From positions 2,457 through 66,456 of the forward strand of contig CAYTZW010000002.1 in assembly GCA_964442785.1 (NCBI GenBank): a stretch of DNA of 64,000 nt. Direction: 5' to 3'. The translations under genes were made by a program, and so were the position numbers. Below, piece after piece: positions 2,433 through 62,104 of this stretch; the stretch's first letter is position 1, and each line of letters starts with the position of its first letter. Origin of the DNA: an uncultured Erysipelotrichaceae bacterium. GTDB taxonomy: Bacteria > Bacillota_I > Bacilli_A > RFN20 > DUOF01. The notes beneath the pieces were generated by a model. That model had not been told where the DNA came from, ran no database searches, and saw only the letters and a program-made list of their open reading frames with translations.

Positions 2433-5400
2433 CTAATCAACACTTAGAAAAATAATTTTCTTTAAGGCATTTTTACCACTTGTTGAAGCCTCTAATTCAT
2501 CAATCTTTTCAACGATTAAATCATATAGCATTTTATTCTCAATCATAATTTTCTTATCATCAGGAATATCATTTTCATTAATCATAGAAGTTACAATAAC
2601 AGAATTAGCAAGTCCTACAAATAATCCGTCATCTCCAAATAAATCATTTACGTTATTTTCATTAACACTAAATGTTTCAAATGGTAACATTTCTTCTAAT
2701 TTGTCTTTTATTTGAAGTTCTTTTGTCCAATTAATTTCTACAATATCTAAATCATCAACAAAATTAGCAGTTGTAACCGTAGTAGCATCATTATCTAAAT
2801 CGATATCAGTTAATAAAGTCTTTAACCTATTTTTGATTTGTCTAGTTGCTACAGGTCCAAAAATAGAAGAATTGTTTAAAGTTACTTTAAATTCATCTAA
2901 TGTAGGTCCAAATGAAGAACTATTTTCATCAATATTATCTAAATCTTGTAAATCATCATAAACTTTAAATTCATTTCGATAATTAGCACTAAAAATATCT
3001 AGTGTTTCAAGATAAGACTCATAATCTGCATTTTCTTCCACAGTAGGATTATTTTCATCTTCAAAGAAATAAGGTTTTACACGTTCTTTAATTTCACTAA
3101 GCAAAGTATCTTCAACAATAGCTTTTACAATAGTAGTTTCTCCAGCAGCATTCATTGCTTCAGTCAATTTATCTCCGTCTTCTCCTAAACCATTACTATA
3201 TCCCACTTCTCCAGGATAATTAATAGCTTCAAAATTTGTTTTAGTAGCAACTTCCTTATCCCAATTAACATCTCCGTTGTTATCTTCATCAAAAATATCT
3301 AAGGAATTAATAAATGTTTCACTTAATAAAGCCGTTCCATCAGTTTTCTCTAAATCTTTTAAACCTTCTTTTATTTTCTTAGAAACTAATTCTTTAACAA
3401 TAGTAGTGGCCTTAGCACTTTCAATAAAATCAGGAACCATTTCAATCGTTACTTCTTTTTCTACTTCGTGATTTACATCATCAGTAATGTTCCATAAAAG
3501 TTCATTTACCGCTAAAAGTTCATCATTCCAATCAACATTTTGAGTTAATTCATTTTGTGTTTTCTTTTCATCATTTTCAAATTCTAACAACTCATTAACC
3601 TTATCAGTTATCGTAGGTCCTAATGTTTTTGTTTGTAATAAAGATGATACAATTACACTTAAATCATTAATTCGAGTTTCGGTATCTTTAGCAATAGGAT
3701 CCATTTTACCAAGTTGTTCAAAATCATCAACGGCTTCTTGATTATCTAAAGCTTTCACCAATAATTTAATTTCTTTTTTCCAATCGGCTTTGGTAAAATC
3801 TGCCGTGCTTTCACTTTTTAAAACTTCACCGTCAAACTCAAAAGAACTAAGTTCATCATTAATACGATTTGTTACGACCAAATAAATTATTTCCGAACTA
3901 AATAAAGTATCAATACTAGCATCATCTTTTAAAATATCAATCATAACCTCACTAACATCTACTTCATCTTCAAACAAGCCTTCAGTAGCTAGTAATCTAT
4001 ACGCTCTTAATAAACTGGTAATTTCATTTTTCCAAACAATATCATCATAATTAATTGAATCATCAATAGTTTCAATTTGTGATTTAATAATATCAGGGAA
4101 TATAGCCATAAATACTTCTGAATTAGTTATTGCATTACTAAGTTCTAAAACTTCATCTTTTTCACTATTAACTTCTAAAGTAGCAATATAATCATTAACA
4201 TCGAAATCATCTTCAAAAGCTCCACCGTCATAGAAGAATTTAGCAGCTATTAAAAGATTTTTCATTTCACTTGACCAATCAATATCTTCAGGTAAAGTCG
4301 CTGTTCCATTTTCCATCATAGACGTTAAGACATCTTCCAAAGTAGGTTCCACAATTTCAGGTACTAAAGATGTAATAATCTTAGATTGCCCCATTTTTTC
4401 ACCCATTACTTCAATAACATCGTTGTCTTTAGATAAAACCGCTTCTAATAATTCAACATCATTTTCAATATCTTCAATAACACCTTCATTTGATAAAAGA
4501 ATTGCTAAAGACACAACATTTTTAAGTTCACTAGACCAAACAACATCATCTAATTCTAAATCGCTTGAAGTATAATTTTTATCTAATGTTTCATTAAAAT
4601 ATTTCAATATAAAGGTTTCAGAAACATCACCCAATACTTGAGAAATCAAAGTAGACTCAAATAAATTATCAATCAATTCATCAACCTTTTCTTCATTAAG
4701 TTCTGATAAAAGTTCACTTCCCTTAGCAGACAATTCATATTCATTACTTTCTTCATTTAAAGTAATAATTCCCGCATCTTTTATTTTAGCAATAGAGTTT
4801 AAAATAGTTTTTAATTCACCTGCCAAAGTACTTTCTTCCACTGCAAGAGTAACCGTTTTTTCGCCACCCATATCTTCAATAAAATTATTAACAACTTTTT
4901 CAAACTTAGGTATCAAATAAGTATCATACAATTCATTTAATAAATCAGATTTTTCAATGTAAGAAACCAAAGAATCAACATATTCACTATCAAGTGTAGC
5001 GATAACATTATAGTAATTATCCGTGATTTCCGTTCCTTCAAAAACAGGTAATTTGACAATTTCTCCAATAATATTAAAGAAATTTTCAATTTCCTTAGCA
5101 AAATTAATTTTAGCAATATCAAATCCTTCTGGTAATTTCGTTTCTTTTTCAATCACTTTAACTCCAACATTGTCCATTAAAGTAACAAGTAAATCAACAC
5201 TAGCGATTTTATCACCTAAAAGTTGGAATTCTTCAGAACTTAAGCGACTTAAAATAGCCACCAAATCAATTTCACCACTTATAGATAAACCTTTACTTTC
5301 TAAAAGAATATAAGTATCAAAAGTAGCACTCAAATCACTTTGAAGATTAACTTTTTTTCCATATAATTTCATATTAGACATTACTTTAAAAAGATTTTTA

Positions 5401-5987
5401 TCCATATCAGCAACCGAAACTACCTTAGAAAAACTAGAATCCGTATAATATTTAGTTATTTCACAACTATTAAAATCATCAGAAACAAGACATTTAGTTT
5501 CACCATTATCTTCTCTTAAAGTTGAAATAGTACCCACAAAAGGAGTAGTTACCAATAAAACTATCAAAAAAGCATTTAAAGTACTAATCGCACTACCACC
5601 AAATCGAGATGCCCAAGTTTTTGGTTTTTTCTCTCCACTAAAGATAATTTTTCTAAAAATCCTTCTAAATATTAATTTAATAGGGAAAAGAACAATCATA
5701 AGAACTATCCAAACAAGTCCTGAAAAGAAAATTCTTAATAATCCCGATAAAGCTTCTTTCAGTTCTGCATTTGACATATATTCCGCTAATTCACTTTTCG
5801 TTTCTTCAGGAATGAAATCTACTATCAAACTAGAAAAAGTAGGAAGTACTATCCAAATAACTAAAAACAGAATTAAATTAAAGCACAAACCAAAAGTGGA
5901 TTTATACATTCCTTTCCATAATCCCCATAAAAATGAAAGACCTAAAAAAGCAAAAAATACTACATCTATAATCATTGAAATTTCCAT
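2433..5987 (-). CDS. Giant (1184 aa) acidic membrane protein: N-terminal CvpA-like 4-TM domain followed by about 1000 aa of Asp/Glu-rich internal repeats
   Basis: N-terminus MIIDVVFFAFLGLSFLWGLWKG resembles the CvpA family. Downstream there are about 8 repeats of 75-95 aa, each starting with D-x-x-W-[SKND]-x-E-[LIM]. Confidence 0.6.
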   Translation of the reverse strand: MEISMIIDVVFFAFLGLSFLWGLWKGMYKSTFGLCFNLILFLVIWIVLPTFSSLIVDFIPEETKSELAEYMSNAELKEALSGLLRIFFSGLVWIVLMIVLFPIKLIFRRIFRKIIFSGEKKPKTWASRFGGSAISTLNAFLIVLLVTTPFVGTISTLREDNGETKCLVSDDFNSCEITKYYTDSSFSKVVSVADMDKNLFKVMSNMKLYGKKVNLQSDLSATFDTYILLESKGLSISGEIDLVAILSRLSSEEFQLLGDKIASVDLLVTLMDNVGVKVIEKETKLPEGFDIAKINFAKEIENFFNIIGEIVKLPVFEGTEITDNYYNVIATLDSEYVDSLVSYIEKSDLLNELYDTYLIPKFEKVVNNFIEDMGGEKTVTLAVEESTLAGELKTILNSIAKIKDAGIITLNEESNEYELSAKGSELLSELNEEKVDELIDNLFESTLISQVLGDVSETFILKYFNETLDKNYTSSDLELDDVVWSSELKNVVSLAILLSNEGVIEDIENDVELLEAVLSKDNDVIEVMGEKMGQSKIITSLVPEIVEPTLEDVLTSMMENGTATLPEDIDWSSEMKNLLIAAKFFYDGGAFEDDFDVNDYIATLEVNSEKDEVLELSNAITNSEVFMAIFPDIIKSQIETIDDSINYDDIVWKNEITSLLRAYRLLATEGLFEDEVDVSEVMIDILKDDASIDTLFSSEIIYLVVTNRINDELSSFEFDGEVLKSESTADFTKADWKKEIKLLVKALDNQEAVDDFEQLGKMDPIAKDTETRINDLSVIVSSLLQTKTLGPTITDKVNELLEFENDEKKTQNELTQNVDWNDELLAVNELLWNITDDVNHEVEKEVTIEMVPDFIESAKATTIVKELVSKKIKEGLKDLEKTDGTALLSETFINSLDIFDEDNNGDVNWDKEVATKTNFEAINYPGEVGYSNGLGEDGDKLTEAMNAAGETTIVKAIVEDTLLSEIKERVKPYFFEDENNPTVEENADYESYLETLDIFSANYRNEFKVYDDLQDLDNIDENSSSFGPTLDEFKVTLNNSSIFGPVATRQIKNRLKTLLTDIDLDNDATTVTTANFVDDLDIVEINWTKELQIKDKLEEMLPFETFSVNENNVNDLFGDDGLFVGLANSVIVTSMINENDIPDDKKIMIENKMLYDLIVEKIDELEASTSGKNALKKIIFLSVD

Positions 5988-5990
5988 TTT

Positions 5991-6449
5991 TTATTCCTCC
6001 TCTTTTTTATTCTTGGAATTTAAAAATTCTACATACATTTTTTTGTAAAAAATTATTCCAAACAACATATATGCAAGAAAAATGAAATGAATCAAGAAAC
6101 TAACAACATCATATGAAAAGAAATACAAAAACATATCTAAAAAATAGAAAATAACGAAACTAATAAAAACTTTTATTCTTCCTTTTTGAGTTTCTTTCCA
6201 AATAAAAAAAATCATTAAAGATATACTAATGCTAATTGACAAATCAACTAAAATTCCTAATGCTGTAGAAGTATCAGAAATAATTCCCCCTAATTGATTA
6301 ACTAATCGATTAATTTCTAACAAATAAATCATTGTTTCATTGTTAAAGTAATAGAATATAGACCTTACCACCACAAAAATAGCAATAATCAACAAACTAT
6401 TTGTTGCTTTTAAATATTTCAAACGATACTTTTCAACTTCATCATTCAT
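5991..6449 (-). CDS. Small polytopic membrane protein of unknown function
   Basis: 152-aa ORF with several hydrophobic segments. Confidence 0.5.
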   Translation of the reverse strand: MNDEVEKYRLKYLKATNSLLIIAIFVVVRSIFYYFNNETMIYLLEINRLVNQLGGIISDTSTALGILVDLSISISISLMIFFIWKETQKGRIKVFISFVIFYFLDMFLYFFSYDVVSFLIHFIFLAYMLFGIIFYKKMYVEFLNSKNKKEEE

Positions 6450-31782: not shown

Positions 31783-34305
31783 TTAGTTATGTGCTTTTTT
31801 GTGTTTTTTAATGACAATTACTTCAATAGCTAACAAAGAAGAAATTATAATCATTGAAACAAATATCATATAGTTAGATTTTGTAATATTTTCTTTAATT
31901 ACAATGTTAGAAGTAGATAAGGTAACAGGTTTAGTACTTTCTTCTTCAACAGGAGTTTCAGTTTCTAATTCGAGAGCAAATGTTATAGTAGAATTGCCAC
32001 TATTTGTAATATTAATAGACCTAGATTTAGTGAAAATAGTTGCTAAGTTTGTACCACTTAATTCTACATACAACTTGACTTCCCCTATTAATCCTTGTGG
32101 AGTAACTAAAGAAGATGTAAAGAAAGAAGAAGCAGCGATGCTAACCCCATATTTATCAAAAGCATCACTTAAATTACTATCATATAAATCAGGTTTACCG
32201 ATAAAATATCTGATAGTTCCATTTTTATATGCTTCTTGAATACTGTTAGAAGTTGCTTTTGTAAAAGTTATTTTTCCATTGCTAATGGAAGCGGTTGCAA
32301 AAATATTACTCATTGTAGGTGGCAGTATTGTATACGAATATCTTAAATAAGAAGATGCAAAAGACATACTGGTGTCAGGAACTTTTCCTGAATAGGTTGC
32401 AACATTATCAGCATTATCCTTTCCTACATTATAAATCCATAAATAATAAGTTCCTTGTTCTGAAACTATAGGAGCTGTAGTAGTAAAAGAAACATTATAA
32501 GCTGTATTTGATGTAAATGTTCTTACAAAACTCGAATAAGAAGGAGCGGAAGTTGAATTGTTCCAAGCATACATATATTGAGTAGGAGAAGAACAATCAT
32601 ATATACCAGAACTAGCTGATTGATTTTTTTCTTCTGTTAATTGAAAACTTATTGAGGAACCTGAACTAATAGTAGAAACATTACTTGTATACCAAACAGG
32701 TTTTGTTTTATCAATAGTTAAATATACAGATACACCATTTCCTGTTTTATCACTGACTAAGATTTCATAAATTCCTTCATCAGATAAAGTTCCATATGTA
32801 TAACTCGTTCCTGCTGAGTCTAAACTTGTATATTCTTCATAAGCACTAAGTGTTTCAGAAACAGTAACGCCTAAAAGAGCTTGATTATCAGTAATTATTA
32901 AAGAACAAGATGCATTTTTATAAGTAGGAGAACTTGAAGAAGTAGACAACACTGTTCCACCACAAGTAACACTAGGAGCGGTATTATCAATAACTAAATA
33001 TCCAGTCGTAGTATTACCAGTGGCGTCTTTGACGATAATTTTATAACTACCTTCAGTAGATAAAGTACCATAGGTGAATTTTGTCCCTGAAATTGCATCT
33101 GTTACATCTCCATAAATTTCATATTGTGATAATGCTTTATTATCGGTAAATACTAAAGAACAAGATTTGCTATAACTTGGAGAAGTAGATGAAGACGAAA
33201 GGGTAATTGAACCACATTTAATCACAGGAGCTGTTGTATCTAAAATAAGGGTAAAAAGAACTTCGGTATAGTTTCCTGATGTATCATAAACCGTAAAAAG
33301 ATTTCCACCCTCAAGTAAAGAACCATAGGTATAACTAGTACCTGATATTTCTTTATCCGAATAAGAGCCATTTTCTATTTCTGCAGTAAATTCTGATAAT
33401 CCAATATTATCTTTAAAAATTACTGTACAAGATGAATACAAGGTTACACTTGTGGTGGTAGAATAGGTATTACTACCACAAGTAATGGTAGGTGGAGTTG
33501 TATCTGATGATACAGTAAGGTGAACAATAAAAGAAATTTCTCCTTTACTATAATATATACCAGCAGTAATTTTATAGGTACCTGGGGATAAAGTATAAGC
33601 ATTTTCATAAATAGTTAAGCTATCAGTAACAGTTTTTCCAAAAGTAGTGGTTCCTGAAATTTCAAAATGGTCTCCACTTAACATAACATTCGTGGCAGAA
33701 GTAGTTAAGTATAATTCTTTTCCTTTTTGTTCAAGAACATAATAATATGTTCCGTCAACACCTATGAGACTATCAATTCCATTGTATACATTTGTTTCTA
33801 TGTAAACATTTAAAGTAATTTCACATATCCAATAATAATCATAACTGTCATTAATAAGTGTAACATCAGCTACTACAATATTAAAAGAACCTTCATATAA
33901 ATAAATTTCAAACTCTCCACAAAAATAATCAGAAGGGTCATCATTACCCATATATTCATAGTTAGAACCACTGCTAGCAGAAAATCCACCGTCATCTGTA
34001 TATGCGTGTAACATAACAAAATCGCCTTCCCTTATAATTATATCTTCGGTAAAAGAATAATATCCACTATCATCAGGATCATATAAATTTTCATTCCATT
34101 TAAAATCATAAGCATTATTATATAACTTTTGTCTAAAACTATTATCAGAATGAACATTTGCTGTTGCAGCTGCGTTTCCTGTTTCATTTGGAACATCTCC
34201 AGACCAGTCATTAGCTTTTGCCATATTATTTGACAAAAATACTAGACTTATAAAGGACAAGCATAACGATAATAAAATTATTCCTACTCTATTCTCCTTT
34301 TTCAT
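31783..34305 (-). CDS. Surface protein paralog A: signal peptide, HYR/DUF5011-like Ig-fold repeats, conserved C-terminal module with TM anchor and basic tail (KKHKKAHN)
   Basis: Start refined to MKKENRV, which has a GGGGGTG RBS. Repeats of about 95 aa begin DTTAPxIxCG and carry D-x-x-GN motifs. The C-terminal roughly 200 aa is near-identical to paralog B. Confidence 0.7.
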   Translation of the reverse strand: MKKENRVGIILLSLCLSFISLVFLSNNMAKANDWSGDVPNETGNAAATANVHSDNSFRQKLYNNAYDFKWNENLYDPDDSGYYSFTEDIIIREGDFVMLHAYTDDGGFSASSGSNYEYMGNDDPSDYFCGEFEIYLYEGSFNIVVADVTLINDSYDYYWICEITLNVYIETNVYNGIDSLIGVDGTYYYVLEQKGKELYLTTSATNVMLSGDHFEISGTTTFGKTVTDSLTIYENAYTLSPGTYKITAGIYYSKGEISFIVHLTVSSDTTPPTITCGSNTYSTTTSVTLYSSCTVIFKDNIGLSEFTAEIENGSYSDKEISGTSYTYGSLLEGGNLFTVYDTSGNYTEVLFTLILDTTAPVIKCGSITLSSSSTSPSYSKSCSLVFTDNKALSQYEIYGDVTDAISGTKFTYGTLSTEGSYKIIVKDATGNTTTGYLVIDNTAPSVTCGGTVLSTSSSSPTYKNASCSLIITDNQALLGVTVSETLSAYEEYTSLDSAGTSYTYGTLSDEGIYEILVSDKTGNGVSVYLTIDKTKPVWYTSNVSTISSGSSISFQLTEEKNQSASSGIYDCSSPTQYMYAWNNSTSAPSYSSFVRTFTSNTAYNVSFTTTAPIVSEQGTYYLWIYNVGKDNADNVATYSGKVPDTSMSFASSYLRYSYTILPPTMSNIFATASISNGKITFTKATSNSIQEAYKNGTIRYFIGKPDLYDSNLSDAFDKYGVSIAASSFFTSSLVTPQGLIGEVKLYVELSGTNLATIFTKSRSINITNSGNSTITFALELETETPVEEESTKPVTLSTSNIVIKENITKSNYMIFVSMIIISSLLAIEVIVIKKHKKAHN

Positions 34306-34361
34306 AAATAACACCCCCAAGATTGCATCTTTTGTAAGTATACATCTCTTTTACATTGTAC

Positions 34362-34390
34362 ATTATATATATATATATATATAAATGCAA
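34362..34390 (-). promoter_or_regulatory. Predicted sigma-A promoter of paralog A: TTGCAT, then a 17-nt spacer made of T plus (TA)n, then TATAAT
   Basis: Read directly from the sequence. The (TA)10 tract at 34364-34383 forms the spacer and the 5' part of the -10 hexamer. Confidence 0.55.
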
Positions 34391-34414
34391 CTTTTCAAAA
34401 TTTGATAAAAAATT

Positions 34415-34434
34415 TATATATCTTTAGATATATA
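34415..34434. promoter_or_regulatory. Perfect palindrome TATATATC-TTTA-GATATATA 24 nt upstream of the paralog A -35
   Basis: An identical palindrome sits at the same distance upstream of the paralog B promoter (39173-39192). Confidence 0.4.
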
Positions 34435-34527
34435 AAAATATATAGGTATTGTTATATTCGCAAATTTTAAAATTTTATTATCTATTTAACCATTAAATGT
34501 TTTATAATTGTGCTAGGAGGGTAATTA

Positions 34528-35559
34528 ATGGATAATAAACCAATGAAAAGCAGTATTGAAATTGATGACATTTTTGTCAACATTAAAGAATTAGTAATTA
34601 ATAGTAGGAATAAAGTATACCAAACGGTAAATACTGAAATGCTTAATTTGTATTAGAATATAGGAAAAGCAATTATTGGAATACAATTAGGCGATGAAAG
34701 AGCAAATTATGGTGATGCTGTTTTGGAAAAGTTGTCAGAAAAATTAACTAGTGAATTTGGAAAAGGATTTTCTAAGAGAAATCTTGAAAGAATGCGAAAA
34801 TTTTATATATGTTTCCCAATTACGACAACAGTGTCGTCGCAATTAAGCTGGTCTCATTATTTAGAACTTATCAAAATTGAAGAAGAACCAAAAAGAAATT
34901 TTTATTTTAATGAATGTATTAATTCTAAATGGAGTGTTCGAGAACTCCAAAGACAAAGAAACTCCCTGCTTTATGAAAGATTGATTTTATCCGCTGATAA
35001 AGAAAAAGTATTGGAATTATCGGAAAAAGGTCAAATATTGAAAACAAGTAAAGACTTAGTAAAAGACCCTTTTGTATTAGAATTTTTGGATATAAAAGAA
35101 AATACCAATTATTTAGAATTTGATTTAGAAAAAAATATTATAGAACATTTAAAAGAATTTTTGCTTGAACTTGGAAAAGGATTTAGTTATGTCGGAAATC
35201 AAATGAGATTAACATTAGAAGAAGACCATTTTTATCCTGATTTAGTATTTTACAATAGACTTTTAAAGTGTTTTGTAATCATTGATTTAAAAATAGGAAA
35301 AGTATCACATCAAGATATTGGACAAATGCAAATGTATGTAAATTATTATGATAGAGAAATTAAGCAAGCTGATGAAAACGCAACAGTTGGAATTTTACTT
35401 TCAACAGATAAAAATGAAACTGTCGTAAAATACACTTTACCTAAAGATAATAAAACTATTTTTTCTTCAGAATTCAAATTGCATATGCCAACTGAAGAAG
35501 AATTAATTAATGCCATAGAAGAAGAAAAGAAGAACTTTAAATTGAATGAAAAATAATAA
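34528..35559 (+). pseudogene. DUF1016/YhcG-like (PD-(D/E)XK nuclease family) gene with an in-frame amber stop at codon 43
   Basis: AGGAGG RBS, then ATG at 34528. The product reads ...EMLNLY*NIGKAIIG..., whereas the family has LYWEIGK, so TGG (Trp) has become TAG at 34654-34656. Downstream are DUF1016 motifs FGKGFSKRNLERMRKFY and QLSWSHYLEL. The track ORF 34723-35556 is the 3' portion. Confidence 0.6.
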
Positions 35560-35831: not shown

Positions 35832-38800
35832 TTATAATGCTTTTTTATGTTTCTTTATGACAATTACTTCAAGTGCTAACAAAGAAGAAATTATTATCAT
35901 TGAAACAAATAACATATAATTAGGTTTTCTAATATTTTCTTTAATTACGATGTTAGAAGTAGATAAGGTTATTTCTTTAACTTCATTACTAGCCACTTCA
36001 GTTTCTGAAGAATTAAAGATTATATTAGCACTACCAGTATTAGTTATATTAATACTACCTGATTTAAGAATAAGAGGATTTGTATCTTTATCATCTAATT
36101 TAAGCATAATGTATAACTCAACATTTCCTATTAATCCTTGAGGAGTAGTTATTGCTCCTTTTTCAAAGAATTTAGACGCTGGCATATTATTGGAAGGACT
36201 ATAAGTAACTCCATATTTTTTAAATCCGTCTTCTAATAAAACATCAGTAGAATAGTTACCATATTTACCTACAAAATAAACCGCTATTCCATTTTTATAT
36301 TCTTCTTGGATATTATTATTTCCTGATATAGTAAAGGATATTTGTCCATTGTTAAGCTTAGCATCGTTTATAATAGCCTTACTAGGAACGGTTCCGTCAT
36401 CATTTATCTCAATAGCAATAGAAGTCATATTACCTGCATAATCATAAGCACTAATACTATATGAACCTGCTGAAGATATAATATATCTATCTCCTGTTCC
36501 TGTGTAATTATCCGCTCCTGATACTACATAGTTTTTAAACATTTTATCTTCAAAAAATAACGTTAAGGGAACATTACTATGATAACTTATTTGCTTATCT
36601 TCTAGTACTTCTCCACTAGAAGAATTAAGTCGTATATTAGGAGATGTGGTATCTGCTAAAATAGTGTATTTATATTTTAATGTACCATAATATATTTCAC
36701 TATAATAATGAGGAGTTTTCCCTGAAAAAATTGCAACATTGCCTGAAGTATCTGCTCCTCGATTGAAAATCCAAAGATAATATGTCGTATTTTGAGTAAC
36801 TTTTGGAGCAGTTGTCATAAATGAAACTTTTGTAGTAGTGGTAGATATAAATGCTGGCTTTAAATCCCAAGTTGGTGATTCAGTATCGCTTATTGACCAA
36901 TCGTACCAATAAGTATAAGTACCATTATACAATTCAATATTATCTGTAATTTCAAAATAAATAGGGGTATTTGTTACTACTTCATTTATATCTTCAGTAT
37001 ACCAAACTGGTGGTTCTGTATCTGCATCAGTATCTGTATCTGTATTAGAGCCACTTGAAACATTAATAGTATATTTGTATTTAACATAATCAGTATAATA
37101 TGAAGTTGAATAATAAGGCTCTTTTCCTGAAAAAGTCGAAATATTGCCTACATAGTCTTTTCCTATGCTAGAAATCCATAAGTAATAGGTTTTACTATAA
37201 GTAACCATTGGTGCTGTAATTGAAAAAGAAACTTTTGTAGCAGATGTTTCTATAAAAGTGGTTAACCAAGTAGGTTTAGAATTTTTTGTAGTAGACCAGC
37301 CATAACAATAAAATTCACTTGCAGTTAGAAAACTATATAGACGTCTATTATCGGTTAATTGTACATATACACTATCTCCTGAATTGATTTCCGTTACATC
37401 TTCAGTATACCAAACTGGAGCTTCTGTATCATTACTATCTGCCAAAACAGTATAGTTATATATAACTTTGCTACTATAAGAAGTGTTACTAGATGCTGGG
37501 GATTTTCCCTTAAAAGTTGCAAGATTGCCAGCAGCATCTTTTCCTTGGTAATAAATATAAAAACTATATACAGCATCTTCTGTTACATATGGTGCTTTTA
37601 TGCTGAAACTAATAGTATTTGAAGTTTGCAAAGTGAAATTTGATTCAAGAGTGGAAGTATACCAACCATATTTATAATAAGTTGATGCAGATGAAAAACC
37701 CCATATTTTTTTATTATCAGTTAATTGAAAATTAAGAATAGTTCCTGAGTTGATTTCCGTTATATCTTCTGTATACCAAACTGGAGCTTCATTATCTTCT
37801 TTAATGTGATATTCATATATAAGGTATAAATAATCCCCGCAAGAATATGGTTCTTTTCCTGAAAATGTTGCAACATTACCTGCTAAATCCTTGCCTCTCT
37901 TATAAATCCATAAATAATAATTTGTATTAGATTTTACAAATGGTGCAGTTGTAGTAAAAGAAATCTTTGTTGGCGATACTATAGAATATTTATACGACCA
38001 AGAAGATGGAGTTTCAGTAGAACTAGTGGACCAACTATAGCCATAATAGGAATAGTCTCTATTAGCATACCTATAATATTCTATTTCAAATAAGTCTGTT
38101 AATTGAAAATTTAATTCTTGACCTGATTCTATTTCATAAATATCATCTGTATACCAAATTGGTGCCTCATCATCACCAATAATATAATATTCATACACAA
38201 CACACGAGTCATATGTATCTCCATATGAAATAGGTTGTTTTCCTGAAAATGTTGCAAGATTTCCTGAATCATCTTTACCTCTATGTTGAAGCCACAAATA
38301 ATATATTCCACTTTCAACTTTACTTGGTGTTGTTTTAAAATGATACATACTTGAAGAATGACCAATATATTGTTCGGACCAATATGATGGTTTTGTGGAA
38401 GAACTAGTAGACCAACCATATCGGTAATAATATGAATAGTAAGTAGAAGTAGAAGTTTCTTCTTCAATATAAATATTTGTTCCTGTTAATTTAAATTCAA
38501 GAGGTGTCCCACTATATATTTTATACAAATCATTAGTATTCCAAACAGGAGCGGTCGAAGAAGTAGTTCCACCAGAACTGCTTGACCCACCTGAAGAACC
38601 AGAACTGCCTGATTCACTCGAACTACCCGAACTACTTTCTATTATTTTTGTAACTGTTATCGTGATATTATAAGTAACATAAACTTCCTTATTGGAGCCA
38701 TAATAATCAATAACAGTAAAAGTATAAGTTCCTGTTGTATTTAAATTATAGTAATAATCTCCTCTTAAAGTTACACAAGAAGAATAATATCCACAATAAG

Positions 38801-39057
38801 AGCCATTATCGGCAACTATAGTAACTGAAACTGGTCCTTTTAAACTAAGACTTTTGGTAACAACATCACCTTTTTCATACATAACGCCATAATATTCATA
38901 TGAATTTCCTTCAGCATCATCTATCATAATGCAAGCATTTTCTTCCAAAACATCATCAACTCCTGCTTTTATGTTTTGACTTGTTACCAAAAACATACCT
39001 AAAAAAGCCATAAATAAGGCTAATAAAGCTACTTTTTCCTTTTTCATATATAACACC
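35832..39057 (-). CDS. Surface protein paralog B (about 1075 aa): signal peptide, Ser/Gly-rich linker, 5-6 repeats of about 115 aa of a HYR/DUF5011-like module, conserved C-terminal anchor module
   Basis: Start refined to MKKEKVALL, which has a GGGGGTG RBS. Repeats read APVWYTEDIxEIxSG...QLTD...YYLWI..GKD.AGN.ATFSGK. The C-terminal module is near-identical to paralog A. Confidence 0.7.
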
Positions 39058-39109: not shown

Positions 39110-39148
<39 letters not shown>

Positions 39149-39172
39149 CTTTTTAAAATTACAAGAAAGGTT

Positions 39173-39192
39173 TATATATCTTTAGATATATA
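39173..39192. promoter_or_regulatory. Palindrome TATATATC-TTTA-GATATATA, second copy
   Basis: Identical sequence and spacing (24 nt from the -35) as at 34415-34434. Confidence 0.4.
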
Positions 39193-39232
39193 AAAAAGAT
39201 ATTAGCACCTATCCTTTAGTATCACTAATATC
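39186..39232 (-). terminator. Terminator after psd
   Basis: AAGATATTAG stem, 19-nt loop, CTAATATCTT stem, followed on the minus strand by TTTTTTAT. Confidence 0.5.
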
Positions 39233-40082: not shown

Positions 40083-40763
40083 CTAAATTACCCAAAATTT
40101 TAAAACTGCTAAGAATATTAATAGTAAAGCAACACCCAACAAAATCTTCATAATGGTTTTGAACCCAACTTTTGGTATTCTAAATTTCAAAATGAAAGCG
40201 AATGCTACTACTATATATCCTATTAGCATTGTTAAAGTATAGCCTAAAGACCCATTTGAAAACATAGTTGCTATTAAATAACAAGCCGGTATGATAACAG
40301 CAGCATTAGTTACTGGTAATCCGTCATAATATTTTCTTTTGCCACAATCTTCTTTTTCGGTTCTTAATATTTCAGTTACATCAAAATACGCTAATCTAAT
40401 TAAAGCACACAAAACATAAAGAATGAAAATAGGAAGAAAATACCACCTGTTAATTCCCATACCAAACATAATCGCCGTAGGTGCTAAACCAAAAGCAATT
40501 AAATCTGATAAGGAATCAATTCTTTCACCAAACATTAAATCTTCTTTACTTCTATTTTTTCTAGTTCTGGCAACCATTCCATCAAAGGAATCGCATATTC
40601 CTGAAATAAGTAAACAAATAACTCCAATATATGGTAAAGGTTCTTTATTCCCCCCCCACCGAGAAGTAAATTCCAACCACACCTGCCGCAACAGACATAT
40701 AAGTTAAAATAACTCCATAATGATAAAATCCTAAAAAAGGACATTTTGATTTACTTTGCATAA
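40083..40763 (-). pseudogene. pssA: CDP-diacylglycerol--serine O-phosphatidyltransferase (pssA) interrupted by a +1 frameshift in a G8 tract
   Basis: The N-terminus MQSKSKCPFLGFYHYGVILTYMSVAAGVVGIYFSVGG is in one frame and stops after the G8 run at 40650-40657 on the coding strand. The track ORF 40083-40691 (GGNKEPLPYIGV...CDSFDGMVAR, a CDP-alcohol phosphotransferase motif) follows in another frame. Removing one G gives a continuous protein. Confidence 0.6.
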
Positions 40764-41819: not shown

Positions 41820-42024
41820 TAAAAGTTCTCCTTTTTTGTTTTTATTCTAACAATTTTCGACAGCAAAATCAATTATATATATATATATATATGCAGAACT
41901 AACAAATATTTTGTTTTAATTTACCATTTCAAAGATTTTTTGTTCACTTTTTAATTGAAAATCAAAACTTTCCCATTGATATATATATATATATTAAAAT
42001 TAAATCAAAGGGGAGGAAACTTTT

Positions 42025-42690
42025 ATGAAAAAGAAAAATTTTTTATTAATTTTATTTTTAGGACTTAGTTTAAGTTTATTTGGTGGTTGCAAAATAGGTG
42101 ATAACTTCTTCAATGACGGCAATGATACACCAACAGTTTCTGAAAAAGATCAAAAATATGATGTCTATCTAATGGCAGTTGAAGAAGGATTAACTTCTTT
42201 AACATATGAAGATTGGCTAGATACCATTAAAGGAGAAATTGGACCTGAGGGTCCTGCTGGTAAGAAATTATTACTAAATATAAGTTCTACACATATTCAA
42301 TATAAATATGAAGGTGACCTTACGTGGACAAATTTAATTTCATTAAATAAGTTAAAAGGCGAAGATGGCACTGATGGCAGAGAAGTTAAATTTTGTACGA
42401 CAGACACTGCTATACGATGGAAATATGAAGATTATAATTACATTAAAAAATGTGACGAATGGAATTTTCTAATATCTTTCAATGAACTTAAAGGTGAAGC
42501 CGGTAAAGACGGTAAAGATGGTGCAACTTGGCATACTGGAGAAGGAGAACCCCTCTACAATCCAAATATACATAATGACGGTGATTTATACCTAGATAGT
42601 AAAACCGGTATTATTTATGAATGCAACGTCGTTTATTGGACAAAAGTAATTGATTTAACTGAAATAAAAAAAGAAAAAAATAACTGTTAA
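42025..42690 (+). CDS. Lipoprotein with collagen-like G-x-y triplet motifs; apparent 5' fragment of a larger surface-protein gene
   Basis: AAAGGGGAGG RBS. Lipobox LFGGC. Three repeats of the LKGExGxDG type (GEIGPEGPAG, GEDGTDG, GEAGKDGKDG). Ends in a poly-A tract. Confidence 0.55.
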   Translation: MKKKNFLLILFLGLSLSLFGGCKIGDNFFNDGNDTPTVSEKDQKYDVYLMAVEEGLTSLTYEDWLDTIKGEIGPEGPAGKKLLLNISSTHIQYKYEGDLTWTNLISLNKLKGEDGTDGREVKFCTTDTAIRWKYEDYNYIKKCDEWNFLISFNELKGEAGKDGKDGATWHTGEGEPLYNPNIHNDGDLYLDSKTGIIYECNVVYWTKVIDLTEIKKEKNNC

Positions 42691-58770: not shown

Positions 58771-60315
58771 TTATTTTAATATTTTTTTATATTCTTTTAT
58801 TTCTTCCTCTGTTGCTAAAACAAAATGGCCTTTTTTAACTTCCCTTAATTCTCTACCCATAACATTATCAGGAACATATTTTATAATCTTTTTGTTTCTT
58901 TCAAGTTCAGGATTAGGTTGAGGTACAGCGGATAATAAAGACTTAGTATAAGGGTGCAATGGATTAATAAACAACTCATCAGAAGGAGCAAGTTCCACGA
59001 TTTTACCTTTGTAAATAACGGCTATTCTATCCGCTACAAATCTAACTACGGATAAATCGTGAGCAATAAACAAATATGTTAATCCATAGTCTGCTTGAAA
59101 TTTCTTTAGCAAATTCAATACTTGAGCACGAATAGAAACATCTAAAGCACTTATTGGTTCATCTGCAATAATAAGTTCTGGTTTCATAACAATGGCTCGA
59201 GCAATTCCTATTCTTTGCCTTTGTCCTCCTGAAAATTCGTGAGGATACCTTGATAAATGTTCAGGCAATAAACCAACACTTTTAATTGCTTCGTGAACTT
59301 TCTTTTCACGGTCTTTTTCATTTTCATACAAATGGAAACTTCTAAGTCCTTCTGAAATAATATAATCTACTGTAGTTCTTTCATTTAAACTTGCCGCAGG
59401 GTCTTGGAAAATCATTTGAATACCTTTTTTAACTTCTTGTTTTACCTTTGGTGATATCGTCCCATTTATAACTTTATCGTGGAAAATTATCTTACCTTCT
59501 CTTACTTTATTAATTCCAACAATTGTTCTACCAATAGTGGTTTTACCAGAGCCACTTTCTCCCACAAGACCTAAGGTTTCACCTTTGTAAATGTCCAATG
59601 ATAAATTAGGAACAACATTAAAGAAATTCAAACCACGATAAAATCCAATATTAACATTTTCCATTCTTAATAAAACATCTTTAGGTAATTCTATCTTTTC
59701 CGAATTTAATTCATATTCCATTACATCTAAAGATTTCAATGAAAATATAGAACAAAAAAATGAAGTGAAAGAAATAGGTAATAATAACCAATTGGTAACT
59801 TTTAAAATTTTGCCTATTTTTATTAACTTTTTTTCTTTTAAACATAATAAAATAATGTAGAAAATAATTAATGATATTCTTATTAAGTTTAGAATATTAA
59901 AAACCAACTCTTTTTCTTCTTTAGAAGCACTTATTAAATAACATATTAATACTTTTGTTAATTTTAAAGTCCAAGTAGAAGTTAATAATACCTCTAGAAT
60001 AAAAATAAAGAAAAGTTTAATAGAACTAATTTTGTTAGATTCTTGATTATAAAGGTATAATCCATATGCTAATACAATTGCATTTAGAGAAATTATTGAA
60101 CCTCCTAATAATAGATTCAATAGTTTTTCATTTTTTTCAAAATCATAATTTTTATTTTGTATCATTATATTTGTAAATGTTAATACACTTATAAAACCTG
60201 CAATTAATAAAATTAAATTATGAATTGTTGGATTCTTAAAATAAATAAAAATATTAACAATTTCAAATACACTAGTAAGTGAGAAAAGATAAATGATAGA
60301 ATTATTCTTTTTCAT
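58771..60315 (-). CDS. oppF: Oligopeptide ABC transporter ATP-binding protein OppF-type, with an N-terminal membrane-domain extension of about 200 aa
   Basis: The C-terminal 310 aa form an OppF-like NBD ([28 protein letters not shown]). The N-terminal 5-6 TM segments are in the same frame, with no stop and no RBS at the internal Met. Confidence 0.65.
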
Positions 60316-62104
60316 TTTTCTTCACTCCTTTCTTAACTGCTGTTGCTTTCTTAGTAACTATTTTAATTTCTTTTACTTTATTGGTTATATTAGAAGCAAC
60401 AGATTTTGCTTGTTCTTCTAAATTCATTTTTAAATTAGCCACTTGCTTTGGCATTTCAACTTTTGGTGCTCTTTGATCAAGTAGCCAAGTTTTAGCCCAG
60501 TGAGTTGTTGATATAACAAATACTGGTGGTTCTTCTTTAAAATCAATAGCTAATGCATATGGATTTCTAGGGGCAAATGCATCTCCATTTATCTTTTGTT
60601 TTAATGATGGAGGTGTCCCTTTAATTGCAAATAAATCTTGACCTTTTATACCCAATTGGGGTAAAGAAGATAATAAAGCCCAGGTATAAGGGTGTGCGGG
60701 TTCATAAAATATTTCATTCACTAATCCATATTCGACTATTTGTCCACTATACATAACTGCAACTTTATCCGCAACGTTGGCAACTACTCCTAAATCGTGA
60801 GTAATATAAACTGTTGTGAAACCGTACTCTTTTTGCAAATCTTTAATAAGTTCTAGTATTTGTGCTTGAATTGTAACATCTAACGCTGTTGTAGGTTCAT
60901 CACATATTAATATTTTAGGATGACAAGCAAGTGCAATTGCTATTACCACTCTTTGTCTCATACCTCCAGAATATTGATAAGGTAAATCATTATATCTATT
61001 AGCAGCATCGGGAATTCCAACTCTAGTTAATAAATTAATAGCTTCTTTTTTAGCTAGTCTTCTACTCATCTTACTATGAATTCTTAAAACTTCACTAATT
61101 TGGTATCCAATTGATAGCAAAGGGTTCAATGATGTCATAGGATCTTGAAAAACCGTAGCAATCATTTTTCCTCTTATTTTTGACCATTCTTTATTAGTTT
61201 TAAACTTAGAAATATTTTGTCCTAAAAATATGACGCTTCCTGAATCAATCCACCCATTTGCATCTAACATTCCGGTAAATGTTTTAGTTAAAACTGATTT
61301 TCCAGATCCTGATTCCCCTACAATTGCTAAGCATTCATCTTTATATAATGATAAACTCACTTTTCTTAATGCAGTTAAATCATCTCCTCTAACTTTGAAT
61401 TTGACGACCAAATCTTTTACTTCTAAGATTGGCAATTCTTTTTTTAACTCATCCGGTTTTCCTTCTTCTACAATTCTTCCATCATAAAAGATTGCTATTC
61501 TGTTACAATACTTCTTAGCTAATTCAATATTAGAAGTTGAAATTAATAAAGTGTATTTCAATTCTTGTTGAAATTTTTTTAGAATATTTAATATTTCTTC
61601 ATTTTCAGAATCATCTAATTGTTTAGGCAAATCTATAACTATTAAATTTGGTTTCTGTTCCATAATGCTTAAAATATGCATTTTATATTTAGTAATTGGA
61701 TACGCTTTTTTAGATTTTAATTTCCAAACACTTTCAGGTAAATTAATATCTGCTAGAGTGTACTTTTGAAAAGCAAAATGTGATTTTAAAGATAAAACAT
61801 CATCATATTTTTCAATTGAATGTGAATTAACCAAAAAAACTTTATTTTCTTTTGGTTTATGTCTTGTATATGGATTTTTTAATTCTTCTCCATTTATTAA
61901 AGTTTTGCCACTCAAAACTAGAGAATTTTTTTCTAATTCAGAAGTAATGTATCTAACTAAAATAGATTTTCCTGCTCCTGTATTACCGACAATACCATAT
62001 GTTTCTCCTTTTTCTACTTTAAAAGAAACATTATTAACAGAAATAAAAGTTGATTTATTGATAGTGGTTTGAATTTTCAAATCTTTAACAACTAAATTTT
62101 CCAT
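60302..62104 (-). CDS. oppD: Oligopeptide ABC transporter ATP-binding protein OppD-type with an extra degenerate N-terminal NBD
   Basis: NBD1 has GNTGAGKS, no signature motif and Walker B IVIDLP. NBD2 is canonical ([27 protein letters not shown]). There is a C-terminal Lys-rich extension. Confidence 0.65.

What the first reader, a model, noticed from the sequence alone, without database searches (positions are those of the whole stretch)
34305..34440. (TA)10 tract forms the exact 17-nt spacer of the paralog A promoter, a candidate slipped-strand phase-variation switch
Reading the minus strand upstream of the 845-aa surface-protein gene gives TTGCAT, then T plus an alternating TA run, then TATAAT, then G, and about 50 nt later the RBS GGGGGTG and ATG. 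The -35 to -10 spacing is 17 nt and the spacer is built entirely from the (TA)10 microsatellite at 34364-34383. Gaining or losing one TA unit would change the spacing to 19 or 15 nt and should shut the promoter. This is the mechanism known for the Haemophilus hifA/hifB (TA)n switch. It has not, to my knowledge, been described for HYR/DUF5011-type surface proteins of low-GC spore formers.
Basis: partly seen in the sequence, partly recalled or inferred. Interest (0 to 1): 0.85.

Follow-up and report, generated by a model that had tools for sequence, protein, structure and literature searches.

The report
TA-repeat promoter spacer, candidate on/off switch
A run of ten TA repeats sits exactly between the two predicted recognition boxes of a surface-protein gene's promoter, so it is probably a slippage-driven on/off switch of a kind already known in Haemophilus and mycoplasmas, but switching has not been shown here.

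Summary
On the minus strand, TTGCAT (34390-34385) is followed by a 17-nt spacer made of the (TA)10 tract, then TATAAT (34367-34362), then an RBS and the ATG at 34305.

Long TA tracts are not chance. The window has four (16-30 nt), simulations give none over 12 nt, and all four lie in promoter regions within 7.6 kb.

New evidence for a switch:
- Paralog B has a homologous upstream cassette with the palindrome, -35, -10 and RBS conserved, but it carries (TA)15, which gives a 27-nt spacer.
- The other two tracts are also bracketed by -35/-10-like hexamers, each with a 13-nt spacer.
- Two assemblies identical over 21.6 kb differ only by one TA unit in one of these tracts.
- A G8 tract frameshifts a neighbouring pssA-like gene.

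Weaknesses:
- The -35 matches only 3 of 6 positions.
- TTGNNN-N16-18-TATAAT occurs at chance frequency in this 27% GC DNA.
- No second copy of the (TA)10 tract itself could be found, and there are no TSS or expression data.

The HYR/DUF5011 and spore-former labels are not supported. The mechanism is already known for H. influenzae hif and for Mycoplasma Vmm. I judge it a plausible new member of a known kind, of moderate interest.

The parts
34385..34390 (-). -35-like hexamer TTGCAT of the paralog A promoter. It matches TTGACA at 3 of 6 positions (the TTG).
   Evidence: It lies in the block AAAAGTTGC, which is conserved with paralog B.
34364..34383 (.). (TA)10 microsatellite. Together with one flanking T it forms the 17-nt spacer 34368-34384.
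   Evidence: TRF. Outlier statistics. Spacer count.
34362..34367 (-). -10 hexamer TATAAT, a perfect consensus match. Its first four bases are the last two TA units of the tract.
   Evidence: TATAATG is 7/7 identical in paralog B.
34413..34436 (.). Perfect palindrome TTTATATATCT-AA-AGATATATAAA with 11-nt arms, a candidate operator. Its centre lies about 70 nt upstream of the predicted TSS.
   Evidence: I22; exact 20-mer found only at the two paralog promoters. It is 25/26 identical to paralog B, while the adjacent linker is 16/23.
34308..34324 (-). Conserved RBS block AATCTTGGGGGTGTTAT immediately before the ATG at 34305.
   Evidence: Identical in paralog B and in L012 from another sample. A one-base variant occurs in L011.
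31783..34305 (-). Paralog A gene, 840 aa. It has a signal peptide, Ig-like beta-sandwich repeat modules, a conserved C-terminal domain and a C-terminal membrane anchor.
   Evidence: 175 relatives. No Pfam family. Module model with pLDDT 78 and only weak Ig V-like fold hits.
39110..39148 (-). Homologous paralog B core promoter: TTGCGT (39148-39143), a 27-nt spacer containing (TA)15 (39112-39141), and TATAAT (39115-39110). It is predicted to be at an OFF length.
39171..39194 (.). The same palindrome upstream of paralog B.
   Evidence: (I25).
35832..39047 (-). Paralog B gene, 1071 aa, with five copies of the ~125-aa repeat module and the same C-terminal anchor.
41872..41896 (-). Third TA-tract site, upstream of the LPG_synthase_TM-like gene: CTGCAT-13 nt-TATAAT with (TA)9.5 at 41874-41892. 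The Logan assembly has one more unit, which gives 15 nt.
   Evidence: A separate TTGATT-17-TGnTAGAAT site lies just downstream.
41976..42000 (+). Fourth TA-tract site, upstream of a 221-aa predicted lipoprotein: TTGATA-13 nt-TAAAAT with (AT)8 at 41979-41994.
40650..40657 (-). G8 homopolymer that frameshifts the pssA-like CDP-alcohol phosphatidyltransferase gene. G7 would restore one ORF. This is a second type of candidate contingency repeat in the same gene cluster.
   Evidence: The Pfam match starts at profile position 29.

Best explanation
The (TA)10 tract is the spacer of a sigma-70/SigA-type promoter (TTGCAT-17-TATAAT) that drives an 840-aa membrane-anchored surface protein. Dinucleotide tracts gain and lose units by slipped-strand mispairing, so the spacer moves in 2-nt steps (15, 17, 19 and so on). 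Only the 10-unit state puts the -35 and -10 at a distance RNA polymerase can use.

This gives heritable, reversible ON/OFF expression. Paralog A would currently be ON. Paralog B (27-nt spacer) and the two neighbouring TA-tract promoters (13-nt spacers) would be OFF or weak.

The locus is one member of a small set of such promoters serving a multi-paralog surface-protein family and envelope genes. That arrangement would allow combinatorial surface variation.

Shown here: the sequence architecture, its conservation between the paralogs, the tract-length differences, and the excess of TA tracts.

Inferred: that these hexamers are the promoter, that the tract length changes at high frequency at this site, and that expression depends on it.
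For: (1) The geometry is exact, a 17-nt spacer with a perfect -10.

(2) Paralog footprint. Between the A and B upstream regions the palindrome block is 25/26 identical, the -35 is 5/6, the -10 plus G is 7/7 and the RBS block is 17/17. The linker is 16/23 and the rest of the 5' UTR is about 60% identical. The only indel inside the core promoter is 5 TA units.

(3) The four alternating-AT runs of 16 nt or more are extreme outliers. All lie in promoter regions within 7.6 kb and all are bracketed by -35-like and -10-like hexamers.

(4) Two Logan contigs from SRR10277277 match the window at every one of about 21.6 kb of aligned positions. The only difference is one TA unit in tract 41874-41892. TA tracts are therefore the fastest-changing or most heterogeneous sites.

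(5) The products are surface proteins of a family with at least 6 paralogs. The RBS block is conserved even in a distant member from another sample.

(6) A G8 frameshift tract lies in the adjacent pssA-like gene. This suggests the organism tolerates or uses simple-repeat contingency loci.

(7) Canonical sigma-70-type promoters exist in the window, for example TTTACA-16-TGnTATAAT before the PAP2 gene.

(8) Precedents are hif (TA)9-11 (PMC2651432) and Vmm dinucleotide indels in the promoter spacer (PMC2628566, PMC10502178).
Against: - The -35 matches only 3 of 6 positions, and the generic scanner does not call the site.
- TTGNNN-N16-18-TATAAT occurs at chance frequency in this DNA.
- A TA tract followed by AT creates TATAAT automatically.
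- No second sequence covering tract 34364-34383 could be obtained, so variation at this tract is untested.
- The one-unit difference at 41874-41892 could be an assembly or PCR-stutter artefact. It may also come from the same reads.
- Paralog B is five units away from the ON length, which is far for a fast reversible switch.
- The third tract has an ordinary promoter directly downstream, so not every TA tract need be a switch.
- There are no TSS or expression data.
Confidence: 0.55

Rival explanations
1. The TA tracts are mutable but functionally neutral microsatellites that accumulate in AT-rich intergenic DNA. The flanking hexamers are coincidental or are created by the tract itself. Transcription starts from another promoter or by read-through, and is insensitive to TA number.
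For: Hexamer pairs of this quality occur at chance frequency. TATAAT arises automatically at the end of a TA tract. The third tract lies just upstream of a better promoter, TTGATT-17-TGnTAGAAT. Paralog B follows the psd gene on the same strand with only a weak AT-rich hairpin between them, so read-through could express it.
Against: No other intergenic region of the 64-kb window has a run above 10 nt. The tract has been kept at the same position between conserved -35 and -10 blocks in two paralogs whose surrounding sequence has diverged to 60-70%. Three of the four tracts (A, B, D) have TTG immediately upstream, and the fourth (C) has CTG. Because A and B are paralogs, these amount to only two independent TTG cases.
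Confidence: 0.2
2. Tract length acts through an upstream regulator or through DNA structure rather than through sigma-factor spacing. A protein bound at the conserved 20-24-bp palindrome must be correctly phased with the -10, or the self-complementary tract melts or extrudes a cruciform under supercoiling. Under this model (TA)10 and (TA)15, which differ by exactly 10 bp or about one helical turn, could both be active states.
For: The palindrome is the best-conserved element of the cassette at 25/26, and the exact 20-mer occurs only at these two promoters. The A/B difference is exactly 10 bp. Single-strand folds of the tract regions are more stable than shuffles, with z = -2.5 and -4.5. Repeat-controlled spacing of distal operators is known for meningococcal nadA (PMC2791445, abstract seen).
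Against: The palindrome and the -35 move together, with the same 22-nt gap between palindrome and -35 hexamer in A and B, so the tract separates the -35 from the -10 in both. A 27-nt spacer is incompatible with normal -35/-10 recognition. A 10-bp difference is one of only a few possible even values, so it could be coincidence. No regulator gene has been identified.
Confidence: 0.15
3. The tract lengths in the record are assembly or sequencing artefacts, and the true sequence differs. The 17-nt spacing would then be fortuitous.
For: The Logan contig L001 ends inside the paralog B tract. The contigs of two other family members start 18 and 38 nt before the ATG. Two assemblies disagree by one unit at tract 41874-41892.
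Against: A 20-nt tract is well within the length of a read and of a k-mer. All non-repeat sequence is identical between the assemblies. An artefact would not create four tracts at promoter positions.
Confidence: 0.05

Closest known systems
Mycoplasma mycoides Vmm, and TA tracts 5' of surface-protein genes in M. capricolum (Persson 2002 and Wise 2006, as cited in PMC2628566, PMC10502178 and PMC2996958)
   Same: [quoted passage not shown] For M. capricolum, PMC2996958 shows dinucleotide (TA) VNTR tracts 5' of lipoprotein and other membrane-protein genes, and calls them contingency loci. The host is a low-GC relative: OppD and OppF of this window match MMSYN1_0167/0168-type models best.
   Different: The proteins here are large (840-1907 aa) Ig-like repeat proteins with a signal peptide and a C-terminal membrane anchor, not small lipoproteins. 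The organism uses the standard genetic code and encodes a cell-wall hydrolase domain. A conserved palindrome lies upstream of the -35. Switching has not been demonstrated here. That the M. capricolum tracts lie between -35 and -10 is my recollection of Wise 2006, which I could not read.
Haemophilus influenzae hifA/hifB (TA)9-11 fimbrial switch (van Ham 1993, as cited in PMC2651432)
   Same: A TA tract between the -10 and -35 boxes. Unit changes alter the spacing and turn expression on or off. The tract length is about 10 units.
   Different: In hif the tract serves two overlapping divergent promoters. Here it serves one gene. The divergent yhcG-like gene starts 145 nt beyond the tract and carries an in-frame stop codon. 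The phylum and the gene product also differ.
Homopolymer spacer switches (M. hyorhinis vlp poly-A, as cited in PMC10502178; Bordetella fim and Neisseria porA/opc, from my own knowledge)
   Same: A simple repeat in the promoter region changes promoter strength in families of surface proteins. [quoted passage not shown]
   Different: The repeat is a mononucleotide, so the steps are 1 nt and expression is graded. Here the steps are 2 nt and an all-or-none outcome is predicted.
Neisseria meningitidis nadA TAAA-repeat switch (PMC2791445)
   Same: The repeat number changes the geometry between regulator operators and the core promoter. This is relevant to the palindrome-phasing rival.
   Different: The nadA repeat lies upstream of the -35, not inside the spacer.

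Membership tests
Simple-repeat promoter-spacer phase variation (hif / Vmm type) | The repeat tract lies between the -35 and -10 elements of the promoter of the regulated gene. | tested here: met
   TTGCAT-17 nt (TA tract)-TATAAT lies about 43 nt upstream of the RBS. The hexamers are predicted, not mapped.
Simple-repeat promoter-spacer phase variation (hif / Vmm type) | The tract length is polymorphic between clones, strains or reads at the locus. | tested here: inconclusive
   No second copy of tract 34364-34383 could be retrieved. Indirect evidence is that the homologous tract in paralog B has 15 units, and that tract 41874-41892 differs by one unit between two otherwise identical assemblies.
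Simple-repeat promoter-spacer phase variation (hif / Vmm type) | Transcription starts downstream of the proposed -10, and expression depends on repeat number. | not testable with these tools
   This needs 5'-RACE or dRNA-seq and reporter fusions.
Simple-repeat promoter-spacer phase variation (hif / Vmm type) | Switching is reversible and occurs at high frequency within a clonal population. | not testable with these tools
   This needs colony-level or deep-sequencing assays.
Simple-repeat promoter-spacer phase variation (hif / Vmm type) | The regulated product is a surface-exposed or envelope component, often one of a paralogous family. | tested here: met
   The protein has a signal peptide and a C-terminal membrane anchor, and the repeat module folds as a beta sandwich. 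The family has at least 6 paralogs or relatives sharing the anchor domain.
HYR (PF02494) / DUF5011 domain proteins | A match to the Pfam model at or above the gathering score. | tested here: not met
   Paralog A scores HYR E = 1.3 and 9.9 bits against a cut-off of 21.7. There is no DUF5011 hit, and paralog B has no relevant hit. The only link is transitive: the remote relative P0004 carries Big_13, HYR and PKD domains.
Endospore-forming Firmicutes (the host claim) | Presence of sporulation-specific genes. | tested here: inconclusive
   The only hit is a 139-aa Hydrolase_2 protein scoring 45 bits against the SleB model cut-off of 236. No other sporulation family appears among the proteins scanned or among the Pfam labels of L001 and L010.
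Invertible-promoter (recombinase) phase variation | Inverted repeats flank the promoter segment, with a nearby site-specific recombinase. | tested here: not met
   The inverted repeats that involve the core promoter are TA-based or are the compact palindrome. No recombinase is found among the neighbouring genes scanned.

The most novel reading that the evidence does not exclude
The 8-kb region would be a coordinated envelope contingency island in a barely sampled, cell-walled, standard-code relative of the Mollicutes. It would comprise four TA-tract promoters and a G8 frameshift tract controlling surface proteins, a lipoprotein and membrane-lipid genes (pssA-like, LPG-synthase-like).

In this reading the tract length gates transcription jointly with a regulator bound at the conserved palindrome, so that states one helical turn apart, (TA)10 and (TA)15, are both functional. 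That would be a hybrid of slippage switching and operator phasing inside a core promoter, which has not been described.
Probability: 0.1. Interest if true: 0.7.

Novelty: new member of a known kind. Interest (0 to 1): 0.45.

Why it matters
If confirmed, it would extend TA-repeat promoter-spacer phase variation beyond Haemophilus and the wall-less mycoplasmas. The new host would be a cell-walled, low-GC lineage that is almost unsampled: every protein checked is a singleton cluster at 90% identity. It would also show that a whole family of large Ig-like surface proteins, and possibly membrane-lipid genes, are under stochastic combinatorial control. That bears on how such organisms evade phages or host immunity. 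It also matters for reading metagenome assemblies, where these promoters repeatedly break contigs. As it stands, the finding is a well-formed hypothesis and not a demonstrated switch.

Tried and rejected
Searches for a second copy of the locus:
- A genome contigs pattern scan with CTAAAGATATATAAA-N18-26-TTGCRT gave 8 loci. The two I read (L004, L008) are chance matches lying next to gene starts, and the other six are from unrelated taxa. None is the source species.
- A metagenome-contig scan with the C-terminal protein alignment found no relative.
- A metagenome-contig scan with the RBS block found no match.

Protein searches:
- The search for homologous proteins with the full protein returned only the query itself.
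- The same tool with the C-terminal alignment and with the C-terminal 185 aa returned nothing.
- The family became visible only with the exhaustive HMMER search.

The look-up of encoding contigs:
- Look-ups for paralogs A and B, three yhcG start variants, P0002, P0006 and P0019 were not on record.
- The contigs that were found stop before the promoters or inside the tract.

Other checks:
- Rfam found no family in the window, so there is no riboswitch or leader RNA.
- I considered a sigma-54 promoter because TTGCA resembles the -12 element. I rejected it because no GG element lies at the -24 position (my reading).
- I considered an invertible element and rejected it.
- I considered an alternative genetic code because of the Mollicutes-like OppD and OppF. 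I rejected it because TGA ends ORFs and TGG makes up 0.84% of codons.
- I looked for the run accessions in the literature and found nothing.
- The primary Vmm and Vmc papers are not held.
- The end of L001 after 9 TA units cannot be interpreted. It does not fit simple 14/15/16-unit heterogeneity and may reflect a coverage drop-out.
Full report
**Observation.**
- TTGCAT lies at 34390-34385.
- The 17-nt spacer is 34384-34368, made of one T followed by alternating TA.
- TATAAT lies at 34367-34362, followed by G.
- GGGGGTG lies at 34318-34312 and the ATG at 34305.
- That ATG opens an 840-aa ORF that ends at 31783.
- TRF reports (TA)10 at 34364-34383.

**Is it more than chance?** The tract clearly is.
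- Alternating A/T runs in the window fall off smoothly: 56 of 6 nt, 21 of 7, 6 of 8, and one each of 9 and 10.
- Four outliers of 16, 19, 20 and 30 nt follow.
- First-order Markov simulations never exceeded 12 nt.
- All four outliers lie in intergenic regions between 34364 and 41994.

The promoter hexamers alone are not beyond chance.
- TTGNNN-N16-18-TATAAT occurs 12 times in the window against 11.1 +/- 3.2 in simulations.
- The generic scanner finds fewer promoter-like sites than in shuffles, 63 against 78.6.
- That scanner does not list this site, because TTGCAT matches the -35 consensus at only three positions.
- Any TA tract followed by AT also creates TATAAT automatically.

The case therefore has to rest on context, not on the hexamers.

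**Context 1, a paralogous promoter.** The 1071-aa ORF at 35832-39047 is a paralog.
- The C-terminal 180 residues are 53% identical to paralog A.
- It shares ~125-aa repeat modules and an almost identical C-terminal membrane anchor.
- Its upstream region is homologous to that of paralog A.

Block by block, the A/B comparison gives:

| Block | Identity |
|---|---|
| 26-nt block around the palindrome TATATATCTAAAGATATATA | 25/26 |
| Linker to the -35 | 16/23 |
| -35 hexamer (TTGCAT vs TTGCGT) | 5/6 |
| TATAATG | 7/7 |
| First part of the 5' UTR | about 60% |
| RBS block AATCTTGGGGGTGTTAT | 17/17 |

- The proposed -35 and -10 therefore coincide with conserved blocks in a diverged background. This is the best in-silico support for calling them a promoter.
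- The only indel within the core is the tract itself: (TA)15 at 39112-39141 against (TA)10.
- Paralog B therefore has a 27-nt spacer. Under the spacer model it is OFF.

**Context 2, two more tracts.** The divergent intergenic region 41820-42025 holds (TA)9.5 and (AT)8. Both are bracketed like the first two.
- On the minus strand, CTGCAT-13 nt-TATAAT precedes an LPG_synthase_TM-like membrane protein.
- On the plus strand, TTGATA-13 nt-TAAAAT precedes a 221-aa protein with a lipoprotein-type signal peptide.
- Each would need two more units to reach 17 nt.
- The first of these also has an ordinary TTGATT-17-TGnTAGAAT site directly downstream. Not every tract therefore needs to be the sole promoter.

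**Context 3, tract instability.** Only one other sample holds this organism.
- Logan contigs L001 and L010 from SRR10277277 align to the window over 10,958 and 10,707 positions with zero mismatches.
- They show a single 2-nt gap. That gap is one extra TA unit in tract 41874-41892, which moves its spacer from 13 to 15 nt.
- Whether the two assemblies derive from the same reads is unknown.
- Either way, a TA tract is the only site that differs in 21.6 kb. This fits hypermutability or within-sample heterogeneity.
- PCR stutter or assembler choice cannot be excluded.
- L001 ends inside the paralog B tract. The contigs of two further family members begin 18 and 38 nt before their ATG. These upstream regions thus repeatedly break short-read assemblies.
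- No retrievable sequence covers the (TA)10 tract of paralog A a second time.

**Context 4, the genes.**
- Neither paralog has a significant Pfam hit. HYR scores E = 1.3.
- An exhaustive HMMER search finds 175 relatives.
- Several share the C-terminal domain and anchor: P0002, P0006, P0007, P0012, P0019, P0050 and P0086.
- P0002, P0006 and P0019 occur only in NCBI, on short contigs, as singleton clusters. They probably belong to the same genome, which would give at least six paralogs.
- Remote relatives such as P0004 are built of Big_13, HYR and PKD domains.
- An AlphaFold model of the repeat module (pLDDT 78) is a beta sandwich with only weak Ig V-like matches.
- 'Ig-like repeat surface protein' is a fair description. 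'HYR/DUF5011-type' is not established.
- The RBS block is identical in P0086 from a different sample, even though that protein is only 24% identical in the C-terminal domain. This suggests a conserved expression cassette for the family.

**The organism.**
- GC content is about 27%.
- It uses the standard genetic code.
- Every protein checked is a singleton cluster at 90% identity.
- OppD and OppF match the Mycoplasma mycoides-type NCBIfam models best. OppD scores 700 bits against a cut-off of 740.
- The only sporulation-related signal is a weak SleB-like domain. 'Spore former' is therefore not established.

**Mechanism.** The best-supported reading is a SigA-type promoter whose spacer is the TA tract.
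- Slipped-strand mispairing changes the spacer by 2 nt per event.
- Only n = 10 gives 17 nt. Nine units give 15 nt and eleven give 19 nt, both outside the usable 16-18 range (established knowledge of sigma-70 promoters).
- Paralog A would be ON, and paralog B and the two 13-nt promoters OFF or weak.
- With a family of such promoters, the population would display combinatorial surface variation.
- I put this at about 0.55.

**Rivals.**
- Neutral microsatellites, with the real promoter elsewhere or read-through from psd for paralog B (0.2).
- Control through phasing with a regulator at the conserved palindrome, or through DNA structure (0.15). The exact 10-bp A/B difference hints at this. It is weakened because the palindrome and the -35 move together.
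- Assembly artefact (0.05).

**Comparison with what is known.**
- Closer precedents exist. [quoted passage not shown]
- M. capricolum carries dinucleotide (TA) VNTR tracts 5' of lipoprotein and other membrane-protein genes as modular contingency loci (PMC2996958, citing Wise 2006).
- The present case works like these, but membership cannot be completed. The position of the tract and the surface product are met. Polymorphism is only indirectly supported. The TSS, expression dependence and reversibility are not testable here.

**Verdict.** This is a real and well-described sequence feature, and its context makes a TA-spacer switch plausible. It would be a new member of a known kind, in a new lineage and a new protein family, but it is not demonstrated. 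I rate the interest at about 0.45.

Noticed in passing
window 40645-40761 (G8 at 40650-40657, minus strand): The pssA-like CDP-alcohol phosphatidyltransferase gene is split by a frameshift at the only G/C homopolymer of 6 or more in the window. The ATG at 40761 gives 38 aa and then a stop, and the 202-aa ORF continues in the +1 frame. G7 would restore one protein of about 236 aa. This could be a phase-variable frameshift, a pseudogene or a sequencing error. The Logan contig carries the same G8.
   Followed up: partly
window 34528-35556 (+), stop at 34654-34656: The divergent yhcG-like PDDEXK nuclease gene has an in-frame TAG (LNLY*NIGKAI). From my recollection of YhcG homologs, not tested here, a Trp (TGG) would be expected at this position. 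This points to a nonsense mutation or pseudogene, or to a base error.
   Followed up: partly
window 41874-41892 vs L001 8190-8215: A single TA-unit difference (9.5 vs 10.5 units) is the only difference between the window and 21.6 kb of Logan contigs from SRR10277277.
   Followed up: yes
window 34413-34436 and 39171-39194: A perfect palindrome, TTTATATATCT-AA-AGATATATAAA, is conserved upstream of both paralog promoters. The exact 20-mer occurs nowhere else in the window. It is a candidate operator for an unidentified regulator.
   Followed up: partly
L011 1-20; L012 1-40: Family members from Logan samples SRR10277277 (P0007) and SRR14160744 (P0086) carry the same RBS block, AATCT(T)GGGGGTGTTATTTATG. 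In both, the contig begins 18-38 nt upstream of the ATG, so the upstream regions seem hard to assemble.
   Followed up: partly
window 41874-41893 and 41974-41993: The two TA tracts of the divergent intergenic region form a 20-nt, 90% complementary inverted pair 80 nt apart. This may simply reflect the self-complementarity of TA repeats.
   Followed up: no
window 58771-62104 (-): OppD (600 aa) and OppF (514 aa) are unusually long. They match the Mycoplasma mycoides JCVI-syn1-type NCBIfam models best, which hints that the organism is related to the Mollicutes despite its standard code and a cell-wall hydrolase domain.
   Followed up: partly
window 2433-6449 (-): The 1184-aa ORF and the 152-aa ORF upstream of it are in the same frame and separated by a single TAA. 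They may be one interrupted gene or just adjacent genes. The 1184-aa ORF has no NCBIfam family; the 152-aa ORF was not scanned.
   Followed up: no
window 39195-39232 (-): After the psd stop codon there is only a weak AT-rich hairpin (GATATTAG...CTAATATC) followed by T6. Read-through from the pssA-psd operon into paralog B is therefore conceivable.
   Followed up: no
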